From: a virus
Lineage: Duplodnaviria > Caudoviricetes
DNA: 64,000 nucleotides
Virus record (IMG/VR): IMGVR_UViG_3300046715_000123
Location: 432-64,431 of that record
Direction: 5' to 3' (one strand)
Shown: positions 2,325 through 64,000 of the stretch, piece after piece
Layout of the letters: the number at the start of each line of letters is the position of its first letter
Numbering within the stretch: the first letter of the stretch is position 1
Translations under genes and position numbers: made by a program
The notes under the pieces: generated by a model
What the model was told of the DNA's origin: nothing
The model's input: only the letters and a program-made list of their open reading frames with translations
Databases searched by the model: none

Positions 2325-3662
2325 ATGCCTTACGTGGAGGCGCGCGGCAACAGCATCCGCGTGAAGTGGTGGGGCGGCGAATACCGCCTCGACGCCGACG
2401 GCAAGCCGACGCGGAAGAAGAAGTACGAGAGCGCCTCAGGCCCAGAGCCGGGAGTCCCGTTCGAGGACGAAAACGAGGCGTACAACTACGGCCTCGACCG
2501 CGAGCACGAGGTCCGCCACGGCACCCACATCCCCCGCGCCAACGCCAAGACGCTGATGGAGGACTACTGCTGGCTGTGGCTGGAAGCCCAGGACCTCAGG
2601 GACACGTCCATCAGCCGGTACAAGTCCAGGCTGCGAGCCCGGATCATTCCCTACTGGGGAGAGCGGCCCGTCGGCGACATCACGACGTGGGAGTACGACG
2701 CCTGGAAGAAGAGCCTGCAGAAGGCGGCGGCAGCCGGCGAGATTGGCCACCACTACGTCGACCAGTTGCTCAGCCTGTTCAACCTGCTGATGACGGACGC
2801 CGTCGTCAAGTACAAGCTGCGCAACGAATCGCCCATCATCGTGCAGCGGCGCCGGGGGAAGTACCGCAAGAAGAAGCGTGAGATCAAGCGGCCGATGGAG
2901 ATGGCCGTCCTCCACAAGCTGGCGACCAACGCGTACCACGTCTGGGGGTTCACCGGCTGGACCTACATGTGGACGCTCGGCTTCACCGGCATGCGCCCGC
3001 CCGGGGAAATGTGGGGTCTGCGCCGCGAGTTCACCTCGCCGACGTGGCCGGCCAGCGATCCGGACCAGGAGCAGCGGGAGGCGATGTTGGACCGCTACGG
3101 GCCGGACACGATGCCCGCCCTGCGGATCCAGTATCAGTCGCAGTACGAGGGCGGCGTGCGGTCTCAGGTCGGGCCGAAGTACGACTCGTACCGGACGCTC
3201 GTCGTGCCGCCGTTCCTGCACGAGATGCACGCTGCTCTGCTCGCCTCGCATGATTCGCCGTGGGTGTTCCCGGCCCTGGGGGGCGGCCAGATGGGGACCC
3301 AGTGGGGCAAGACCTACTGGCCGTACATTCGCGGAGGGTCCCCGCAGAGGTCGGCGCGCAAGGACTACATGCGTCGCGAGATCCAGCCGGTCAAGGAGAT
3401 GACGGGCAAGCGGATCTACCTGCTGCGGCACGGGCACCGCGAGTGGCTCGAGGAGGACGGGCATTCGCGGATCGCGATGGAGACCCGGATGGGGCACGAG
3501 GTGGCCGGTGTCGAGGGCCTCTACGCGAACCTGACGCCCTCTATGGAGCGGCGGATCGCTGACACGCTGGAGGAGCGGTGGGAGGCGTTCTGGGGGATGG
3601 GGGTGTGGTGGGCTCCGCCGTTTCCCATTAGTCTCCCAGAAGGGTCACCTGGCGAGGGATAG
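2325..3662 (+). CDS. int: Tyrosine integrase
   Basis: TGMRPPGE, YLLRHGH, MGH and EGLY catalytic motifs; arm-binding-like N-terminus. Confidence 0.92.
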   Translation: MPYVEARGNSIRVKWWGGEYRLDADGKPTRKKKYESASGPEPGVPFEDENEAYNYGLDREHEVRHGTHIPRANAKTLMEDYCWLWLEAQDLRDTSISRYKSRLRARIIPYWGERPVGDITTWEYDAWKKSLQKAAAAGEIGHHYVDQLLSLFNLLMTDAVVKYKLRNESPIIVQRRRGKYRKKKREIKRPMEMAVLHKLATNAYHVWGFTGWTYMWTLGFTGMRPPGEMWGLRREFTSPTWPASDPDQEQREAMLDRYGPDTMPALRIQYQSQYEGGVRSQVGPKYDSYRTLVVPPFLHEMHAALLASHDSPWVFPALGGGQMGTQWGKTYWPYIRGGSPQRSARKDYMRREIQPVKEMTGKRIYLLRHGHREWLEEDGHSRIAMETRMGHEVAGVEGLYANLTPSMERRIADTLEERWEAFWGMGVWWAPPFPISLPEGSPGEG

Positions 3663-5848: not shown

Positions 5849-6067
5849 TCAGTGCTCGGCAGCCGAACTGACGGACGGGACGGGGCCGTATCGCAGCCGC
5901 AAGGCTTCCAGGGTGACGTCCAGGGCGCTGGCCATGGCGGTGCGCACGCCGCGGACGCTGCTCGCCGCCAACTCGGCGGCCAGGGCCTCCTCCTCTCGCT
6001 GGAGGCGCATGCGGTCCTGGTGTAGTTCCTTGAGGCGGGCCAGCTTCTCCGCGATCGTCTCGTCCAT
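5849..6067 (-). CDS. Small coiled-coil/HTH-like protein
   Basis: 72 aa; TGATG coupling to upstream gene. Confidence 0.6.
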   Translation of the reverse strand: MDETIAEKLARLKELHQDRMRLQREEEALAAELAASSVRGVRTAMASALDVTLEALRLRYGPVPSVSSAAEH

Positions 6068-6549
6068 CAGGCATTCACCATCGCGGGCGGGGCGAAGTCC
6101 TCATGCCGGGAACCGCCCGCGCTGAAGACGTACAGGAAGATCGCGGCACCGTTGTGGTAAGTGAGGGTGGCGCCGTAGCGGATGGCGCCCGGGGTGTCAC
6201 GGTCCTGGTAGCAGGCAACGCTGCTGGTCTCGTCGGCAGCGACGGACACGGCCAGGGCGGCTAGATACTTCTCCACCGCCGCCACGTCGAGCTTGTTGCC
6301 GCTGGCGGGGTCGGGGATGTCGAGGGCCGGGTGCGGCTTGCCAGTGACCGGCGGCGCGGGCTGGTCGTGGCGTTCTCCGTCGGCGAGCCGGCCCACGATC
6401 TGAACGTTGACGGGCACGCCGGCGCGGGTGGTGGCGATGACGCCGTGCGGAGAGCGGTCGAAGCCGGCCTCGCTGTAGGTGCGGGCGGTGAGGCGGCCGT
6501 CGCGGTTGATGGCGTCGGCCAGGAGGCGCTCGAAGCGGTCGGGGCGCAT
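6067..6549 (-). CDS. Hypothetical protein
   Basis: MRPDRFERLL...; GAAAGG RBS; GC3-biased codons. Confidence 0.65.
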   Translation of the reverse strand: MRPDRFERLLADAINRDGRLTARTYSEAGFDRSPHGVIATTRAGVPVNVQIVGRLADGERHDQPAPPVTGKPHPALDIPDPASGNKLDVAAVEKYLAALAVSVAADETSSVACYQDRDTPGAIRYGATLTYHNGAAIFLYVFSAGGSRHEDFAPPAMVNA

Positions 6550-6625
6550 GGGGGCCTTTCTGGGGTGGGCGGGTAGCGTGGGGCTGGTGGCCCCCACCCA
6601 ATTCACCTGGGTGGGGGCCACGCCG

Positions 6626-6760
6626 TTAGATGCGGACCGTGCTCTTGCCGCTGCCGGAGCACTTGGCTCGGCTTCCGGCCGCCTGGTGCGGCGGGCAGTC
6701 CTTGCCCACCGGGGCGCCCACCAGGGCTCCGCAGACACGGCATGCGCTCTTCGGCGCCAT
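6626..6760 (-). CDS. 44-aa Zn-finger-like microprotein (below ORF-track cutoff)
   Basis: MAPKSACRVCGALVGAPVGKDCPPHQAAGSRAKCSGSGKSTVRI; GAGGG RBS. Confidence 0.6.
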   Translation of the reverse strand: MAPKSACRVCGALVGAPVGKDCPPHQAAGSRAKCSGSGKSTVRI

Positions 6761-6811
6761 ACCAACCCTCTTTTCTCTTGTCGGGCGGGCAGGGCGCCCG
6801 CCGTCAAGACC

Positions 6812-6849
6812 AGTATACCAAGCCGGTTGGGGTACACCAAGCAGGTTGG
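6812..6849 (-). promoter_or_regulatory. Promoter with tandem operators
   Basis: TATACT -10 on minus strand (6812-6817) overlapped by two GTA(T/C)ACCAAGC(C/A)GGTTGG repeats (6813, 6832). Confidence 0.6.
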
Positions 6850-7197: not shown

Positions 7198-7452
7198 CTA
7201 CGACCTGGCCGCCCGGAAACCGGCGATCATGCAGTCGCGGCACGAGTCCCGCCACCGCAACCCCAAGCCGGGCACGGACAGCACCTGCGTCGCAACCGCC
7301 GGCTCCCCGCATGACGAACACGGGCGGCGCATCCACGACAACGGGTGCACACGCGCCTGCCAGCCCGACAGGCGCGGCGGCACATCCGGGGCCGGCTCCA
7401 GAGCGGCCGGGTCGATGCCGAGGGCGTCGAGGATCCGCGTGTCGTCTCGCAT
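7198..7452 (-). CDS. Hypothetical Zn-ribbon protein
   Basis: CSSC...CRDC; GAGGAGG RBS. Confidence 0.6.
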   Translation of the reverse strand: MRDDTRILDALGIDPAALEPAPDVPPRLSGWQARVHPLSWMRRPCSSCGEPAVATQVLSVPGLGLRWRDSCRDCMIAGFRAARS

Positions 7453-7532
7453 CGCTGCCTCCTCGGATGACAGAGCCCGCCGCGACGGGGGACTGCGCGG
7501 CGGGCCTACAAGCAGTCTGGCACGGGGCGGGG

Positions 7533-8531
7533 CTACAGGCCGATCCCTCTCATCGGGTTGTCGCGCCATTTGTCGACGGGCCGGATGTACTCCAGCACTT
7601 GGGGGCTGGTCTTGGACCAGCGGCCGTGGTCGGCGATGAAGCTGACGGGCTGGCCTGCCTTCGCTGCTTCGGTGGGGCCGCCGGCTCGGATGCCGTGGGC
7701 GGTGAACGCATCAGCGTTCGGCAGTCCGGCCGCTTTGGCAAGGTGCTTGACGCGTTCGTTGATGGACCAGCCGGACATGCCGCCGGGCTGCAGCTGGCCC
7801 CAGCGGTTGATGCGGCGCAGCAGGGGCCCGTCGGTGATGCCGTGCTCGGCGAGGGAGGCCAGCCAGGCGCGGGCTACGCGGATGGGGTCGGTGTCGGGGT
7901 GCACGCCGTGCGGGATGTTCACCTCGGCGCCGTCGGCACCTTGGTCGGTCTTGGACTTGCGGATGAGGACGGTGATGCCGTCGTCGGTGAACGTCAGGTC
8001 GGAGATGTGGAGGGCGGAGAGTTCGGAGCGGCGGGCCATCATGGCGAATCCGATGACGAGGAGAACGCGGTCGCGTTGTCCTGTGGGCGTCGTCGGGTCG
8101 GTGGCGTCGATCATCTTGCGCAGCGGGTCGAGGGTGACGGGGGCGGACTGCCGCTTGCGCTTCCCGACTTCGGCGCGGTCCCGCTTGTGGGTCTTGAGGA
8201 TCCGCAGGGCTGCCCTGGTGTCGGGCTGCCCGTCGTGGCCTGCTTCCCGGTGGGCAACGCGGATGGTGGCGATGGCCTGCTCGATGGTGGACGGTGCCTT
8301 GTCTTGGTCGCAGAGGTGGCTGACGTAGTCGGCGAGGGTCTGCGCGCTGGCGGGCAGAGTGTCGCGTCCGCGTTCCTCGCACCAGGCGATGAAGTCGCGG
8401 GCCTGCCTGCGGTAGGCGGTCTTGGTGTTGTCGGGGATGGACCGGTCGAGGCGGTCGAGGGCTGCCGGGGAGAGGGCCGTGTTTGGGTCGTGCGGGGCGA
8501 CTTCGGCCGGGCGGGGTTCGAGGTCGGTCAC
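7533..8531 (-). CDS. Cre-like tyrosine recombinase/resolvase
   Basis: SAM-like N-domain (NTKTAYRRQARDFIAWC); ARRSEL, KSKTDQ, HGIRAG, GRW, LEY; Trp in the second His position as in Cre; no arm-binding domain. Confidence 0.9.
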   Translation of the reverse strand: MTDLEPRPAEVAPHDPNTALSPAALDRLDRSIPDNTKTAYRRQARDFIAWCEERGRDTLPASAQTLADYVSHLCDQDKAPSTIEQAIATIRVAHREAGHDGQPDTRAALRILKTHKRDRAEVGKRKRQSAPVTLDPLRKMIDATDPTTPTGQRDRVLLVIGFAMMARRSELSALHISDLTFTDDGITVLIRKSKTDQGADGAEVNIPHGVHPDTDPIRVARAWLASLAEHGITDGPLLRRINRWGQLQPGGMSGWSINERVKHLAKAAGLPNADAFTAHGIRAGGPTEAAKAGQPVSFIADHGRWSKTSPQVLEYIRPVDKWRDNPMRGIGL

Positions 8532-8779
8532 GATGCCTCCGGGCCGATCAGATCGACGATTCGCCCTACGATCCGCGCCTTCTGTCCGGGCAAGTCCAGC
8601 TCGTCCATGCGGAGCCGCTGCAACTCCGCCAGCTCGTGCGCGTAGCCGTTCATCAGCCCGTTGGCCTGCTCTTCGCTCGCCCCGCCAGCCAGCAGTGTCC
8701 GCCGAAGCGCGAGCGATGCGGCAGTGGAGGCGGCAGGGGTGGCGTCCGGCTGGCGGGGAGCTCCCTCTGCGGCACTCAT
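8528..8779 (-). CDS. Hypothetical protein in recombinase operon
   Basis: Overlapping start/stop with both neighbours. Confidence 0.6.
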   Translation of the reverse strand: MSAAEGAPRQPDATPAASTAASLALRRTLLAGGASEEQANGLMNGYAHELAELQRLRMDELDLPGQKARIVGRIVDLIGPEAS

Positions 8780-8976
8780 CGTTCGCCTCCCCAGAGACTC
8801 GTGCACAGCGCGGCATCGTGCGGGCCGCTAATGATGAGGCATCCGCGCTCGTGCCGACCAGTGCGCACCGTAAACGGGTGCCACGGTGCGCCAGGGGCGG
8901 CTGGACGCTCGGTGTGGTAATCCTTCGGCCGCCCACATACGCAGCGGATCTCTTTGAGTGTCAGGTCGTCAGGCAT
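8776..8976 (-). CDS. Small Cys/His protein, probably leaderless
   Basis: MPDDLTLKEIRCVCGRPKDYH...; TGGTAGAAT extended -10 just upstream of ATG. Confidence 0.5.
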   Translation of the reverse strand: MPDDLTLKEIRCVCGRPKDYHTERPAAPGAPWHPFTVRTGRHERGCLIISGPHDAALCTSLWGGER

Positions 8977-8992
8977 AGCTGATTCTACCATT

Positions 8993-9028
8993 TCTGACCC
9001 TCCATAAGTCAGGTTATGGAGGGTTAGA
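8993..9028. other. lox/dif-like tyrosine recombinase crossover site
   Basis: TCTGACCCTCCATAA-GTCAGG-TTATGGAGGGTTAGA: 15-bp inverted arms (1 mismatch) around an asymmetric 6-bp spacer. Confidence 0.75.
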
Positions 9029-9051
9029 GTGTTCTCGCAGGAACGACAGAA

Positions 9052-9092
9052 CGCCCCCGCTCCCCTGCCGGTTGGCAGAGAAGCGGGGGCGC
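9052..9092 (-). terminator. Probable terminator at end of late/lysis transcript
   Basis: CGCCCCCGCT...AGCGGGGGCG hairpin. Confidence 0.5.
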
Positions 9093-9098
9093 GGTGGT

Positions 9099-9269
9099 TC
9101 ACGCGGGTTCGTCGTAGGGCAGCGGCGGGTCGTACACCGGCTCCTGGAATGGGGCGATGGACGGCGCCGGGATCGGCTGCGGGTCGAGGCGGCCCATCTG
9201 CTCGAGCGAGCGGGCGTCGGCCGCGGAGTCGTCACGGCGCGGCATGCGCGCGGCAGGGGGTTGAGGCAT
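9099..9269 (-). CDS. 56-aa Pro-rich hypothetical protein (below cutoff)
   Basis: MPQPPAARMPRRDDSAADARSLEQMGRLDPQP...; AGGAG RBS. Confidence 0.55.
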   Translation of the reverse strand: MPQPPAARMPRRDDSAADARSLEQMGRLDPQPIPAPSIAPFQEPVYDPPLPYDEPA

Positions 9270-9367
9270 ATGGAACTCCTAATTCACGTCGCCCAAATCA
9301 CAGATCAATAAGGCGAGTTGAGTACCTGGCGGGCCGTTAAGTCCTTGCGGTCCAGATAAAATGAAGC

Positions 9368-9817
9368 ATGGGAAACCTCACCGCCTCAGAGAGGCAGCGA
9401 TTCATGTCGCGCGTGCGCCGTGAAAACGACTGCCTCGTATGGACCGCACCCCTCGACAAAGACGGCTACGGGTCCTTCTACCTCCGCCGCAGGAACCGCC
9501 GCGCACATCGCGTCGCCTGGTACGACATGCACGGCGAGATACCCGACGGCATGGTCATCAACCACATCTGTCGCAACCGGGCGTGCGTCAACACCCAGCA
9601 CCTTCAGGTGGTCACCATCAGGGAGAACGTCCTCAAGGACTCCACCACCATCTCGGCGATCAACGCCCGCAAGACGCACTGCAGAAAAGGGCACCCCTTC
9701 GACCGCGTGTACAAGAGCTCGAAGGGCGGGAAACAGCGTAGCTGCAGCATCTGCGATGCGGCGAAGCACCGGCGACTGCAAGCGAAATGGCGCGCCGAAG
9801 ACAAACTGAAGGTCTAA
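9368..9817 (+). CDS. HNH endonuclease (homing type)
   Basis: CLVWT...GYG...AHRVAW...HICRNRACVNTQHL...EN; THCRKGH; opposite strand to lysis genes. Confidence 0.88.
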   Translation: MGNLTASERQRFMSRVRRENDCLVWTAPLDKDGYGSFYLRRRNRRAHRVAWYDMHGEIPDGMVINHICRNRACVNTQHLQVVTIRENVLKDSTTISAINARKTHCRKGHPFDRVYKSSKGGKQRSCSICDAAKHRRLQAKWRAEDKLKV

Positions 9818-54451: not shown

Positions 54452-55774
54452 TCAGGCAGCACCGCCCAGCGGCTGTGCAGCGATCTCCAGAGCTGAGAGG
54501 TGCCGCGGAAGGCAGACCGTGGGGTCCGTGCTCTGGTACGCGCCTGCCGCCGCAGCAGCCGCGAGGATGTCGTTGAGGTAGAAGTTGCCGTCCGCGGCTA
54601 CGCGGTTGTAGTGGCCGAGGAACGCGCCGCGTTCGTCGGCGGTCGGCCACCGGTTGGCGCCCGCACGGAAGCTGCGCGTCCAGAGGTCGACGGTTCGCTG
54701 CCGGAAGGCGTCGGCCCCCGTGTGCTCGAGCTCGTCCGCTCGCAGGCCGTGGTGGAGCTCGGACGAGTGATGGAAGCCGGCGAGGATTCCAGCGCGCCTG
54801 ATGCGATCCAGCGATATGCCACCGTCTGCGAGGTCGTCGACCTGGTCCTGTACGACCCTGAAGAGGAATGTGTCCGGCGGCTCGATATACGTGGTTGCAC
54901 CGTCGAGATCGGTCCAGGCGTCGCACCACTCGATGACGACGTTGGCACGCTCCTGATCGGCAGCACCCGCCGTTGCATCCTGAATGGTCGAGAGGCCTGC
55001 GGATCCGCCGAAGACGGCGTCAACGATCAGCCGCTCAGGATTGATCCAGTCGCTGCTCGCCTCGAGCTCAATGAGGCTGCGCGTAAAGTCGGCGCGCTCT
55101 CGATCTGAGGGCGCCTCTTCCAGATCGGCTGTCCAGGCGTGCGCCCAGCAATCAACAGCGGCCTGTCCAAGCGTGCTCAGCCCCCCGCTGTTCTTCTTGC
55201 CCGATGGGGCGACGATCTCGCGCGCCCGCTCGTGAAGGTCCTTGACCATGCGCCATCCGATGCCGCAGGCGTACCGGAAGGTGTTGTCGACCTTGACCGT
55301 CGGGTTGGTCATGGCCTTCTCGACGATGTCGGGCCAGACCTCTTGCGGCAGGCCGGCTTCGTAGAAGGAGTCGAGGCTGCCCTTCCAGCCGTCGGGAAGG
55401 TCGACGCGCACGGTCTTCCATCCGTCTTCGCGGGTCCAACTACTCCAGGCCTTCCTGAAGTGCTCGCGGTATGCGAGCTTCGGCGCCTGCTCCTCGCGCT
55501 TCTCGTCGGCCGCCTGCGTCATCGCGGCGGCCCACCGGAGCGCGTCGTCACTGACGTCGGCGACGATCGTGGCGTCCGGGCTGGCGCTGCTCTTGCCGTT
55601 GTTGCAGGGTTCGCAGCTGGTGGCGAGGTTGCTCGGTTCGTCGCCGCCGCCGAGCGCGACGGGCGTGACGTGGTCGACCCTCAACGGCACGTCCGGGGCG
55701 GACGCTCCGCAGTACCGGCAGGTGTAACTGTCCCGCCGGAGGATCTCGTACCGGAGGCGCTTGGAGACGGCCAT
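54452..55774 (-). CDS. HNH endonuclease with long C-terminal extension
   Basis: KRLRYEILRRDSYTCRYCG...DHVTPVALGG...NLATSCEPCNNGK. Confidence 0.85.
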   Translation of the reverse strand: MAVSKRLRYEILRRDSYTCRYCGASAPDVPLRVDHVTPVALGGGDEPSNLATSCEPCNNGKSSASPDATIVADVSDDALRWAAAMTQAADEKREEQAPKLAYREHFRKAWSSWTREDGWKTVRVDLPDGWKGSLDSFYEAGLPQEVWPDIVEKAMTNPTVKVDNTFRYACGIGWRMVKDLHERAREIVAPSGKKNSGGLSTLGQAAVDCWAHAWTADLEEAPSDRERADFTRSLIELEASSDWINPERLIVDAVFGGSAGLSTIQDATAGAADQERANVVIEWCDAWTDLDGATTYIEPPDTFLFRVVQDQVDDLADGGISLDRIRRAGILAGFHHSSELHHGLRADELEHTGADAFRQRTVDLWTRSFRAGANRWPTADERGAFLGHYNRVAADGNFYLNDILAAAAAAGAYQSTDPTVCLPRHLSALEIAAQPLGGAA

Positions 55775-55883: not shown

Positions 55884-56237
55884 ATGACTTACACTCTTGC
55901 CATGGCTGCTGACCAGGGCATTCAGATCGCGGAAGACGGCGTCGCAGAGGTGTCGATGACCGAGGCGCGCGCCCAGCTGACCCGTCTGATCCGCGGCGTC
56001 CGCGAGGACGGCCGACCTGGGGCCTTCACGGACCGCGGTGAACGCAGGGCCTACGTCGTCACGCCTGCGATGTACGACCGCGTCAAGGGCCCCAGCGAGA
56101 AGGAGCGGATGCTCGCCGAGCTGGTCGACAAGCTGGACGCGCTCTTCAGGGACCCGCAGTTCGCTGCCCGTGTCTCCGAGAAGGACCCCGAGCTCTACGA
56201 GATCCTCGACACCGGGTCGCTGCACCTGCTGCTCTGA
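55884..56237 (+). CDS. Phd/YefM-like antitoxin/regulator
   Basis: VSMTEARAQLTRLIRGV...FTDRGERRAYVV. Confidence 0.7.
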   Translation: MTYTLAMAADQGIQIAEDGVAEVSMTEARAQLTRLIRGVREDGRPGAFTDRGERRAYVVTPAMYDRVKGPSEKERMLAELVDKLDALFRDPQFAARVSEKDPELYEILDTGSLHLLL

Positions 56238-63726: not shown

Positions 63727-64000
63727 CAGGCACCGCCGGCCAGCGCAGCCACAGCGTCCGACCAGGCCGCGTCAGCGCTGACGCCGACGTAGCGGGCCTC
63801 GACGCGGGCGCCGAACTCGGTCAGCGCGTGCCGCGCCTCGAACGAGCCGGCCGGGGTGTACGCGGACCTCTGGGTAGCGCGCCTGGTGGTGGCGTTGCGG
63901 ATGTAGTCGATCGCACCCTCGGCGCTCTGCGACGAGTTGTACTCGCCGACCGGCTGCCACTGGCCGGGCTTGGCGTGGCACAGGGCGGCAATAGCGAAGT
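63726..64000 (-). CDS. Hypothetical protein (5' end outside window)
   Basis: Read manually ...PGQWQPVGEYNS...AYTPAGSFEAR...VEARYVG. Confidence 0.5.
   Translation of the reverse strand, partial: FAIAALCHAKPGQWQPVGEYNSSQSAEGAIDYIRNATTRRATQRSAYTPAGSFEARHALTEFGARVEARYVGVSADAAWSDAVAALAGGA

What the first reader, a model, noticed from the sequence alone, without database searches (positions are those of the whole stretch)
7533..9028. Cre-like recombinase with its own lox/dif-like target site
Seen: a second tyrosine recombinase with Cre-type catalytic set (R, K, HxxR, W, Y) and no arm-binding domain. About 460 bp upstream is TCTGACCCTCCATAA-GTCAGG-TTATGGAGGGTTAGA (8993-9028), 15-bp inverted arms around an asymmetric 6-bp spacer, with CATAA-N6-TTATG resembling dif cores. 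The site sits just upstream of a TGGTAGAAT -10 driving the three-gene operon that ends in the recombinase. Established: P1 Cre/loxP circularises and monomerises phage DNA. Inference: a multimer-resolution system for an extrachromosomal circle, autoregulated by binding its own site, and a possible new orthogonal recombinase/site pair for high-GC hosts. It fits the circle-transfer model.
Basis: partly seen in the sequence, partly recalled or inferred. Interest (0 to 1): 0.8.

Follow-up and report, generated by a model that had tools for sequence, protein, structure and literature searches.

The report
Phage Cre-like recombinase with own site
A Streptomyces-type temperate phage carries a Cre-like DNA recombinase together with its own palindromic target site, a genuine pair that belongs to a family already characterised on the Streptomyces plasmid SCP2, so it is a new member and not a new kind.

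Summary
A 332-aa tyrosine recombinase lies at 7533-8531 (minus strand). It has a Cre-type fold and catalytic set and no arm-binding domain. A 15-6-15 inverted repeat (8993-9028, arms 14/15) lies 461 bp upstream of its start, just before a TGnTAGAAT -10-like element and a three-gene operon with overlapping stops and starts.

The repeat is the only one of its quality in the window and the only copy in the genome. A PWM built from these sites finds the same kind of site (outer TCTG/CAGA, inner ATAA/TTAT, 6-nt asymmetric spacer) in 72 of 86 homologous loci. It is always on the upstream side of the recombinase gene. The arms covary, and the genes between site and recombinase differ from locus to locus.

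SCP2 MrpA is a published multimer-resolution recombinase that acts on a short site, mrpS. It is 34.5% identical to this protein, and the same kind of palindrome lies 16 nt before its start codon.

Best reading: this is an MrpA/mrpS-type recombinase/site pair that resolves multimers of the circular phage replicon and probably represses its own promoter. The pairing is well supported. The biological role and the autoregulation are inferred.

The scan has reported this family before on other DNA, and earlier follow-ups reached the same verdict. This is a new member of a known kind.

The parts
8993..9028 (.). 36-bp recombination-type site. It has 15-nt inverted arms (8993-9007 and 9014-9028, 14/15 complementary) around the asymmetric 6-nt spacer 9008-9013. 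Read in the direction of the gene it is TCTAACCCTCCATAA-CCTGAC-TTATGGAGGGTCAGA.
   Evidence: I5. Unique in the window and in the record. The same type of site lies upstream of homologues in 72 of 86 loci, with covarying arms.
8982..8990 (-). Extended -10-like element TGGTAGAAT (TAGAAT = 8987..8982), 5 nt downstream of the site. The first ATG (8976) follows 5 nt later, which suggests a leaderless transcript.
   Evidence: Read from the sequence. TACGAT, TAGGAT and TACAAT stand at the same 5-nt distance from the site in L004, L005 and L010. Not detected by the sigma-70 consensus scan, so this is an inference.
8776..8976 (-). First gene of the operon: a 66-aa Cys/His-containing protein of unknown function.
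   Evidence: No Pfam, NCBIfam or PHROG family. No homologue in the other loci at E <= 1e-3.
8528..8779 (-). Second gene: an 83-aa protein of unknown function. Its start overlaps the stop of the first gene (ATGA).
   Evidence: No family. No homologue in the other loci.
7533..8531 (-). Cre/MrpA-type tyrosine recombinase, 332 aa. Its GTG start overlaps the stop of the second gene (GTGA).
   Evidence: PDB profile search: Cre/Tre E 4e-27 over the full length, XerD 5e-6 and partial. AlphaFold model pLDDT 83.2. Foldseek top hits are all Cre/Tre, TM 0.68-0.71. SCP2.07c (MrpA) 34.5% identity over 100% of the query, E 2e-35.
9052..9091 (-). GC-rich hairpin (18-nt arms, 89% complementary, 4-nt loop) after the stop of the small upstream gene 9099..9269 (-). 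Probably a terminator that insulates the site and promoter from upstream transcription.
   Evidence: (I3) and the sequence. Function is inferred. It did not meet the T-run rule of the terminator scan.

Best explanation
The 36-bp palindrome at 8993-9028 is the cognate crossover site of the Cre/MrpA-type recombinase encoded 461 bp downstream. One monomer binds each 15-bp arm, and strand exchange takes place in the asymmetric 6-bp spacer.

The phage has one site per genome. The natural substrates would therefore be two directly repeated sites in a dimer or higher multimer of the circular phage replicon, which the enzyme resolves to monomers, as published for MrpA/mrpS of SCP2 and for Cre/loxP of P1.

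The right arm ends 5 nt before the extended -10 element of the operon. Recombinase bound to the site should therefore also repress its own transcription.

Shown here: the protein is Cre-like and catalytically complete. The site is real, unique and conserved next to homologous recombinase genes, and its arms covary.

Inferred: recombination activity, multimer resolution as the biological role, and autoregulation.
For: (1) The protein is Cre-like. In a PDB profile search, Cre/Tre score E 4e-27 over profile positions 22-324 of 334, while XerD scores 5e-6 over a partial stretch. Foldseek gives Cre/Tre as the top hits (TM 0.68-0.71) and XerD at TM 0.42. All seven catalytic residues are invariant.

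(2) The site is more than chance. It is the only 15-6-15 repeat with at least 14/15 matching in the window, against 0.025 expected. There is one copy in the record.

(3) The site is linked to the recombinase.
- The plain motif ATAA-N6-TTAT makes no demand on the outer 11 positions. It occurs in 63 of 85 homologous loci. In 59 of them it lies within 1 kb upstream of the gene, with arms matching 10-15 of 15.
- A PWM scan of whole loci on both strands hits 72 of 86 loci. Every hit is upstream of the gene and none lies inside or downstream of it.
- The site stays with the recombinase while the genes between them change: 2 small genes here, 1 in L004, a different one in L005, none in L008 and L011-L014.

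(4) The arms covary. 13 of 15 arm positions show changes on both sides. There are 114 compensated cells against 41.8 +/- 4.8 in shuffles (0 of 500 reach the observed value) and 8-39 in slid controls. Arm types differ between loci within one host genome (L031/L033, L068/L069), which argues against a host factor as the binder.

(5) There is a characterised relative.
- SCP2.07c (MrpA) is 34.5% identical over the full length.
- TCTGGCTCTTGATAA-CGTTCC-TTCTCTAGAGCCAGA lies 16 nt before its ATG, and parA lies downstream.
- Papers state that MrpA resolves plasmid multimers (PMC3218068, passage).
- They also state that an oligonucleotide-sized mrpS suffices for MrpA-dependent recombination in E. coli (PMC4685060, passage).

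(6) Related loci bear marks of exchange at the site.
- Of 398 locus pairs that are homologous on the gene side, 210 have no homology on the far side.
- In the pairs inspected, homology stops at the outer edge of the site, or inside it for L072 and L078.
- Spacers diverge faster than arms: 0.19-0.23 against 0-0.05 differences per position among close pairs.

(7) The replicon has a circular map. The ends of the record overlap by 174 bp with 1 mismatch.

(8) Homologues on the Streptomyces plasmid-phage ZL12 and on a phage-like S. janthinus plasmid are the only PF00589 proteins there, and each record also has a ParA-type gene.
Against: - No recombination, DNA binding or regulation was measured.
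- The phage has its own integrase, excisionase and attP region. No ParA-type gene was found in it, so a stably maintained plasmid stage is not shown.
- The sigma-70 consensus scan found no promoter at the site.
- 14 of 86 homologous loci have no PWM hit. Two of these have 7-nt-spacer variants, and L029 is largely masked upstream.
- I could not read Warth et al. 2011/2013. That the SCP2 palindrome is mrpS is therefore my inference from its position and size.
- The PWM and alignment A2 were built from sites chosen partly for being palindromic, so the percentage of paired cells is inflated by construction. The motif-only set is the cleaner control.
- A T:G combination at arm position 10/27 in 16 distinct sequences would also fit an RNA stem, although all 16 belong to one clade.
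Confidence: 0.7

Rival explanations
1. The pair works in integration, cointegrate formation or module exchange and not in multimer resolution. The recombinase would join the element to other replicons, or to degenerate secondary sites, at the spacer.
For: Homology between related loci ends at the site in many pairs. L072 and L078 have one canonical arm and one deviant arm with a conserved spacer, as a hybrid junction would. Many homologues lie in chromosomal contigs.
Against: The window phage already has an integrase/excisionase pair. In 5 of 5 whole genomes with close relatives there is exactly one window-type site, the one beside the recombinase gene, and no second junction. A looser motif search in 5 further genomes found no second canonical site. 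Both arms are canonical in most loci.
Confidence: 0.1
2. The system circularises injected, terminally redundant linear phage DNA, as Cre can do for P1. Multimer resolution would be secondary.
For: The element is a phage and the enzyme is Cre-like. The record has a circular or permuted map.
Against: The end overlap is only 174 bp and may come from assembly. The site lies about 20 kb from the terminase genes at about 28.7-30.9 kb (gene list; function assigned from size and position only). Most homologues sit on plasmids or chromosomal elements where this role cannot apply.
Confidence: 0.07
3. The palindrome is only an operator. The recombinase, or another phage or host regulator, binds it to control the operon, and no strand exchange occurs there.
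For: The site abuts the -10-like element. Dyad symmetry with covarying arms is also what a dimeric repressor site would show.
Against: The catalytic set is intact and invariant. Spacer positions 3 and 6 are conserved and the spacer is asymmetric. The orientation and distance of the site relative to the gene vary from 10 to over 1400 nt. The small intervening genes are not conserved. Arm types differ within one host. The SCP2 homologue is a published active recombinase.
Confidence: 0.06
4. The palindrome acts as an RNA or single-strand DNA hairpin, such as a terminator or a 5' UTR structure, and is unrelated to the recombinase.
For: A 15-bp stem would fold. T:G combinations occur at one arm position in one clade.
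Against: In the window it lies upstream of the predicted -10 element and downstream of a separate GC-rich hairpin. There is no T-run. No Rfam family matches above chance: the best hit has E 0.63, 18.6 bits against a gathering score of 90. Conserved base identities (outer CTG/CAG, inner ATAA/TTAT, spacer T3 and C6) point to sequence-specific recognition.
Confidence: 0.03
5. The site is a dif-like target used by the host XerC/XerD, as in elements that exploit Xer.
For: The spacer is 6 bp and the inner ends read CATAA/TTATG. The resemblance to dif is recalled and was not tested.
Against: Arms vary widely between elements in the same genus and even the same genome, while the adjacent recombinase varies with them. 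A host enzyme would need constant arms. The element encodes its own complete recombinase.
Confidence: 0.03

Closest known systems
MrpA/mrpS of Streptomyces coelicolor plasmid SCP2* (Warth, Haug & Altenbuchner 2011; Warth & Altenbuchner 2013). Seen only as citations and passages in PMC3218068, PMC4685060 and PMC6486577; the papers themselves are not held.
   Same: The protein is homologous (34.5% identity over the full length, E 2e-35). The SCP2 sequence carries a palindrome with the same 15-6-15 geometry, outer TCTG/CAGA, an inner ATAA on one arm and a C.T..C spacer, directly upstream of the gene. The replicon is circular.
   Different: This pair sits on a virion-forming temperate phage that also has Int/Xis and has no detected ParA, not on a low-copy plasmid next to parAB. 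Two unrelated small genes lie between site and recombinase. The left arm differs from the SCP2 arm at 6 of 15 positions, so cross-reaction is unlikely. Activity is untested.
Cre/loxP of phage P1
   Same: It is phage-borne, has the same fold and catalytic set, and is a simple recombinase with a single palindromic site near its gene. Multimer resolution and cyclisation as the roles of Cre are recalled.
   Different: Identity is only 23.5%. loxP has a 13-8-13 layout (passage in PMC10250229), against 15-6-15 here. P1 is a plasmid prophage, whereas this phage carries an integrase.
[quoted passage not shown]
   Same: Identity is 34.6%. It is the only PF00589 protein on a phage that is also a plasmid, and that record has ParA. 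pZL12 is described as a plasmid with phage particle genes and ParAB in PMC4487206 (passage).
   Different: The best palindrome upstream has different inner ends (GAAAT-N6-ATTCC) and lies about 800 nt away. No function is published for it as far as my searches show (the primary paper is not held).
Xer/dif systems, including the single-recombinase forms XerS/difSL and XerH/difH (recalled)
   Same: The central region is 6 bp and the inner ends are A/T-rich. In the single-recombinase forms the gene lies beside its site (recalled).
   Different: The protein is far closer to Cre than to XerD, XerA or XerH. The arms are 15 bp. The system lies on mobile elements with arms that differ from element to element.

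Membership tests
MrpA/mrpS-type (Cre-type simple tyrosine recombinase with adjacent site) | Detectable full-length homology to MrpA (SCP2.07c) | tested here: met
   tblastn gives 34.5% identity, query residues 1-332, E 2e-35.
MrpA/mrpS-type (Cre-type simple tyrosine recombinase with adjacent site) | Two-domain Cre-like fold without an arm-binding domain | tested here: met
   Pfam SAM-like plus catalytic domains. Cre aligned over profile positions 22-324 of 334. Model pLDDT 83.2. Foldseek hits to Cre/Tre with TM 0.68-0.71.
MrpA/mrpS-type (Cre-type simple tyrosine recombinase with adjacent site) | Complete catalytic set R-E-K-H-R-W-Y | tested here: met
   R167, E170, K194, H279, R282, W305 and Y315 are invariant in 24 sequences and align to Cre R173, E176, K201, H289, R292, W315 and Y324.
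MrpA/mrpS-type (Cre-type simple tyrosine recombinase with adjacent site) | Short palindromic site (inverted arms around a short asymmetric spacer) upstream of the recombinase gene | tested here: met
   15-6-15 site at 8993-9028. The same layout is found at SCP2 and in 72 of 86 homologous loci. That the SCP2 palindrome is the published mrpS could not be checked against the paper.
MrpA/mrpS-type (Cre-type simple tyrosine recombinase with adjacent site) | Recombination between two sites without accessory factors; resolution of multimers | not testable with these tools
   Needs a reporter assay. Only the published statements for MrpA are available.
MrpA/mrpS-type (Cre-type simple tyrosine recombinase with adjacent site) | Context: stability region of a circular plasmid next to parAB (context of SCP2, not strictly defining) | tested here: not met
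   The map is circular. No PF01656 ParA-type gene is found in the record at E <= 0.01. The element is an integrase-bearing phage.
Cre/loxP proper | 34-bp site with 13-bp arms and an 8-bp spacer | tested here: not met
   The site here has 15-bp arms and a 6-bp spacer. The loxP geometry is taken from PMC10250229.
XerCD/dif | Recombinase of the XerC/XerD family acting on a conserved chromosomal site | tested here: not met
   NCBIfam XerD and XerC models score 51 and 34 bits against cut-offs of 330 and 335. In the PDB search XerD scores 5e-6 against 4e-27 for Cre. Arms differ between elements within one genome.

The most novel reading that the evidence does not exclude
The actinomycete MrpA-type systems would form a large natural set of mutually insulated recombinase/site pairs: at least 70 here, with arms that change together with the enzyme and spacers that diversify faster than the flanks. 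Co-resident copies would be kept apart by spacer incompatibility, for example L075 and L081 on one contig, which have identical arms and spacers CGTTCC versus TATGCC. In this phage the pair would serve a third DNA lifestyle beside integration and virion packaging: a plasmid-like, possibly TraB-transferable circle whose multimers must be resolved.
Probability: 0.2. Interest if true: 0.6.

Novelty: new member of a known kind. Interest (0 to 1): 0.35.

Why it matters
It gives a well-defined, probably heterospecific relative of MrpA/mrpS and Cre/loxP from a high-GC phage. Together with the roughly 70 natural site variants collected here, it could be tested directly as a set of orthogonal recombination tools for Streptomyces and other actinomycetes.

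A published mining pipeline for Cre-type pairs searched only for 8-bp spacers (PMC10250229), so sites with 6-bp spacers like this one would have been missed.

Biologically, it shows that a multimer-resolution-type module is kept by an integrating temperate phage and not only by plasmid prophages. This hints at a replicating circular stage. It does not open a new kind of mechanism.

Tried and rejected
**Checks that found nothing**
- The promoter/terminator consensus scan of 7400-9400 found 0 promoter-like sites and nothing at the site. The -10 element therefore remains a reading of the sequence.
- An Rfam scan of 8700-9400 gave only a chance hairpin hit (E 0.63).
- The two small operon proteins, the 56-aa upstream protein and two further neighbouring ORFs (6067-6840 and 7198-7569, minus strand) have no Pfam or NCBIfam family, and the two operon proteins and ORF 6067-6840 have no PHROG family. 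The two operon proteins have no homologue in about 100 fetched loci at E <= 1e-3. I therefore dropped the idea that they are conserved accessory factors.

**Readings considered and rejected**
- Invertible switch: rejected because the record has a single site.
- Integron-like cassette capture, to explain the variable genes between site and recombinase: rejected because no second site flanks them.

**Searches for a second or partner site**
- RATAA-N6-TTATY in 5 genomes gave only the known sites plus non-palindromic matches scoring 6-10 of 15. That pattern cannot match the own site of L009's genome, so I repeated the search with the window-type pattern in 5 genomes. This gave one site each, always beside the recombinase.
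- A search for the window's integrase in 5 related records found nothing. The tool itself warns that an empty answer shows nothing.

**Loci without a PWM hit**
- 14 of 86 loci had no PWM hit. A scan with other spacer lengths recovered 7-nt-spacer variants in L034 and L029 and nothing convincing in the other 12.

**Literature**
- Warth 2011 and 2013 and the pZL12 paper are not held.
- A full-text search for a stretch of the SCP2 palindrome found 0 papers.
- Supplements were not opened. The mrpS oligonucleotide sequences of PMC4685060 probably stand in a supplement that I could not see.

Full report
**What the window is**

The window is positions 432-64431 of a 64,431-bp virus record that CheckV rates as complete. 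It has 68.7% G+C. The first and last 174 bases of the record are the same apart from one mismatch, so the map is circular at about 64,257 bp.

Tape-measure and endolysin genes resemble those of Streptomyces phages, and part of the structural region matches two Streptomyces plasmids that carry phage genes. The genome also encodes:
- a 442-aa integrase (2334-3662, +) and an excisionase-like protein (736-1023, -);
- an FtsK/SpoIIIE-like protein, a replication initiator and a RecT-like protein.

No ParA-type gene was found.

**The observation**

The recombinase gene runs from 8531 to 7533 on the minus strand (GTG start, 332 aa). It is preceded by two small genes (8976-8776, 66 aa; 8779-8528, 83 aa) whose stops and starts overlap as ATGA and GTGA.

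The quoted inverted repeat is present at 8993-9028, with 15-nt arms matching at 14 of 15 positions and a 6-nt spacer. It ends 461 bp before the recombinase start.
- It is the only repeat of this quality in the window. Simulated sequences gave 0.025 per window, and 5 of 200 simulations had any.
- It occurs once in the record.

On the gene strand the site is followed after 5 nt by TAGAAT, which is preceded by TG, and 5 nt later by the first ATG. The consensus promoter scan did not report a promoter here, so this element is a reading of the sequence.

**The protein**

Pfam finds the catalytic domain and the SAM-like core-binding domain. The Xer models of NCBIfam score far below their cut-offs.

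A profile of 24 homologues matches Cre and its derivative Tre in the PDB at E 4e-27 over almost the whole length. XerD scores 5e-6 over a short stretch. The AlphaFold model (pLDDT 83.2) finds Cre/Tre as all top structural matches (TM 0.68-0.71) and XerD at TM 0.42.

R167, E170, K194, H279, R282, W305 and Y315 are invariant and align with the catalytic residues of Cre. There is no room for an arm-binding domain.

**Is the palindrome tied to the recombinase?**

I collected 5 loci from viral contigs, 80 from genomes (the best 80 of 170 confirmed relatives, 44-85% identity) and the SCP2 locus.

*Motif-only search.* The bare motif ATAA-N6-TTAT puts no condition on the outer 11 positions of each arm.
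- It occurs in 63 of the 85 viral and genomic loci.
- In 59 of them it lies within 1 kb upstream of the gene, and its 15-nt arms match at 10-15 positions.
- The few hits elsewhere (L055, L078, and a second hit in L042) include the poorest palindromes (9 and 10 of 15) and one perfect one (L042 at 673).

*PWM scan.* A weight matrix built from 55 distinct upstream sites was used to scan every locus in full on both strands.
- It scores at least 18 bits in 72 of 86 loci. L006-L008 are identical copies.
- Every hit is on the upstream side of the gene, and 69 of the 72 lie within 500 nt of the match start.
- None is inside or downstream of the gene.
- The matrix is derived from these sites, so the detection is circular. 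The absence of hits elsewhere is still a fair specificity control.
- Of the 14 loci without a hit, two have variants with a 7-nt spacer and one is largely masked upstream.

*The genes in between change.*
- There are two small genes here, one in L004, a different one in L005, and none in L008 and L011-L014.
- The two small proteins of the window have no homologue in the other loci.
- More distant homologues show the same plan. In a phage annotated as Microcystis phage Mwe-JY05 (45% identity) the order is site, two small genes, recombinase. In a phage-like S. janthinus plasmid the site lies just upstream of the gene. In phage Gilgamesh the order is site, four genes, recombinase.

**Covariation**

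In an ungapped alignment of 73 sites (66 distinct), the outer CTG/CAG, the inner ATAA/TTAT and spacer positions 3 (T) and 6 (C) are conserved. The middle of the arms changes, for example ACCCTCC, GGGTTGC, ACCCGCG and GATTAGC.
- 13 of 15 arm positions show changes on both sides.
- There are 114 compensated cells against 41.8 +/- 4.8 in shuffles (0 of 500 as high), and 8-39 when the partner column is slid.
- Caveat: many of these sites were picked partly because they are palindromic, which inflates the share of paired cells. The motif-only set does not have this bias and shows the same symmetry.

Different arm types occur in one and the same host genome (L031 and L033; L068 and L069). The binder is therefore encoded by the element and not by the host, and the only conserved neighbour is the recombinase.

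**The known relative**

SCP2.07c of plasmid SCP2 is 34.5% identical over the full length. It lies upstream of parA. A 15-6-15 palindrome of the same type lies 16 nt before its ATG.

Papers that cite Warth et al. 2011 state:
- that MrpA of SCP2 resolves plasmid multimers (PMC3218068, passage);
- that an mrpS site cloned from two oligonucleotides is enough for MrpA-dependent recombination in E. coli (PMC4685060, passage).

A 2013 paper on mrpS mutants is listed in the references of PMC6486577. I could not read the primary papers. That the palindrome is mrpS is my inference.

**Marks of exchange at the site**

- Among 398 locus pairs that are at least 75% identical over at least 400 nt on the gene side of the site, 210 share no detectable similarity in the 800 nt on the other side.
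- In the 12 pairs inspected, similarity stops at the outer edge of the site. In L072 and L078 it stops inside the site, leaving a deviant far arm beside a conserved spacer and near arm.
- Among sites with nearly identical arms, the spacers differ at 0.19-0.23 per position and the arms at 0-0.05 (the pairs were chosen for similar arms, so this comparison is biased).
- L075 and L081 lie on one contig with identical arms and spacers CGTTCC and TATGCC.

These patterns fit a crossover region whose identity sets partner compatibility. They are suggestive only.

**Against an integrative role**

Five of five whole genomes with close relatives hold exactly one window-type site, the one beside the recombinase. 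A looser motif search in five other genomes found no second canonical site. The window phage has its own integrase.

The plasmid-phage ZL12 and the S. janthinus plasmid have a ParA-type gene, and the homologue is their only PF00589 protein. This is the arrangement expected for a multimer-resolution enzyme of a plasmid prophage. pZL12 is described as a plasmid with phage particle genes and ParAB (PMC4487206, passage).

**Mechanism proposed**

Two monomers bind the arms, and two sites in a dimeric circle synapse. Y315 cleaves at the edges of the 6-bp spacer, and the dimer is resolved. Occupation of the right arm, which ends 5 nt from the -10 element, lowers transcription of the operon. Everything after the pairing of the site with the enzyme is inferred.

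**Comparison and novelty**

The pair works like Cre/loxP and is a member of the MrpA/mrpS family by homology, fold, catalytic residues and site layout. It is not loxP-like in geometry (15-6-15 against 13-8-13) and it is not a Xer enzyme.

What is particular here:
- the host element is an integrase-bearing, virion-forming phage without ParA;
- two unrelated small genes sit between site and enzyme;
- the transcript is probably leaderless.

A published search for Cre-type pairs looked only for 8-bp spacers and does not mention Streptomyces, Actinobacteria or MrpA in its main text.

The scan has met this family several times on other DNA, and earlier follow-ups filed it as MrpA/mrpS-type as well. 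I reached the same verdict from my own calls before reading them.

Verdict: observation confirmed, interpretation supported, new member of a known kind, moderate interest.

Noticed in passing
window 63827-64000 (record 64258-64431) and record 1-174, which is outside the window: The two ends of the record repeat each other over 174 bp with one mismatch. The record, classed as 'linear', therefore has a circular map of about 64,257 bp.
   Followed up: partly
L075:2310-2345 and L081:2254-2289 (same contig, about 52 kb apart): Two recombinase/site pairs in one genome have identical 15-nt arms and different spacers (CGTTCC and TATGCC). This would keep them from recombining with each other if spacer identity between partner sites is required.
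   Followed up: partly
L072:2369-2404 and L078:2317-2352: These sites look like hybrids. The spacer and the arm nearer the gene are canonical, but the far arm differs from that of close relatives at 6 of 15 positions, and the flank beyond it is unrelated. No reciprocal partner was found in those genomes.
   Followed up: partly
L034:1455-1487 and L029:1804-1836: These are variants of the site with a 7-nt spacer (13-nt arms matching 13/13 and 11/13).
   Followed up: no
sites in L011-L014, L017, L019-L024 and L026: In these 12 loci the conserved spacer polarity (C.T..C) is inverted relative to the recombinase gene. In the window and 59 other loci it points the same way as the gene. Unexplained.
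   Followed up: no
L107 (PP395638.1, 64447-70418): The closest relative in the phage database (45% identity) is annotated as a Microcystis phage. It has the same plan of site, two small genes and recombinase, in G+C-rich DNA next to a portal gene.
   Followed up: no
window 9368-9817 (+) and 54452-55774 (-): There are two HNH endonuclease genes. The first is transcribed divergently from the small gene that precedes the site. In ZL12 and the S. janthinus plasmid an endonuclease gene directly follows the recombinase.
   Followed up: no
window 55902-56237 (+): A small protein has a near-threshold match to the Phd/YefM antitoxin family (29.0 bits against a cut-off of 29.8).
   Followed up: no
window 9099-9269 (-): The 56-aa protein encoded just upstream of the site has relatives near the recombinase homologues of L049 and L062 (60-61% identity). 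No site of the family type was found in those two loci.
   Followed up: no
L042:662-697: A second perfect 15-6-15 palindrome of the family type (arms GCAGGCTTGCGATAA) lies 1.6 kb upstream of the main site of that locus. Its arms differ from those of the main site.
   Followed up: no
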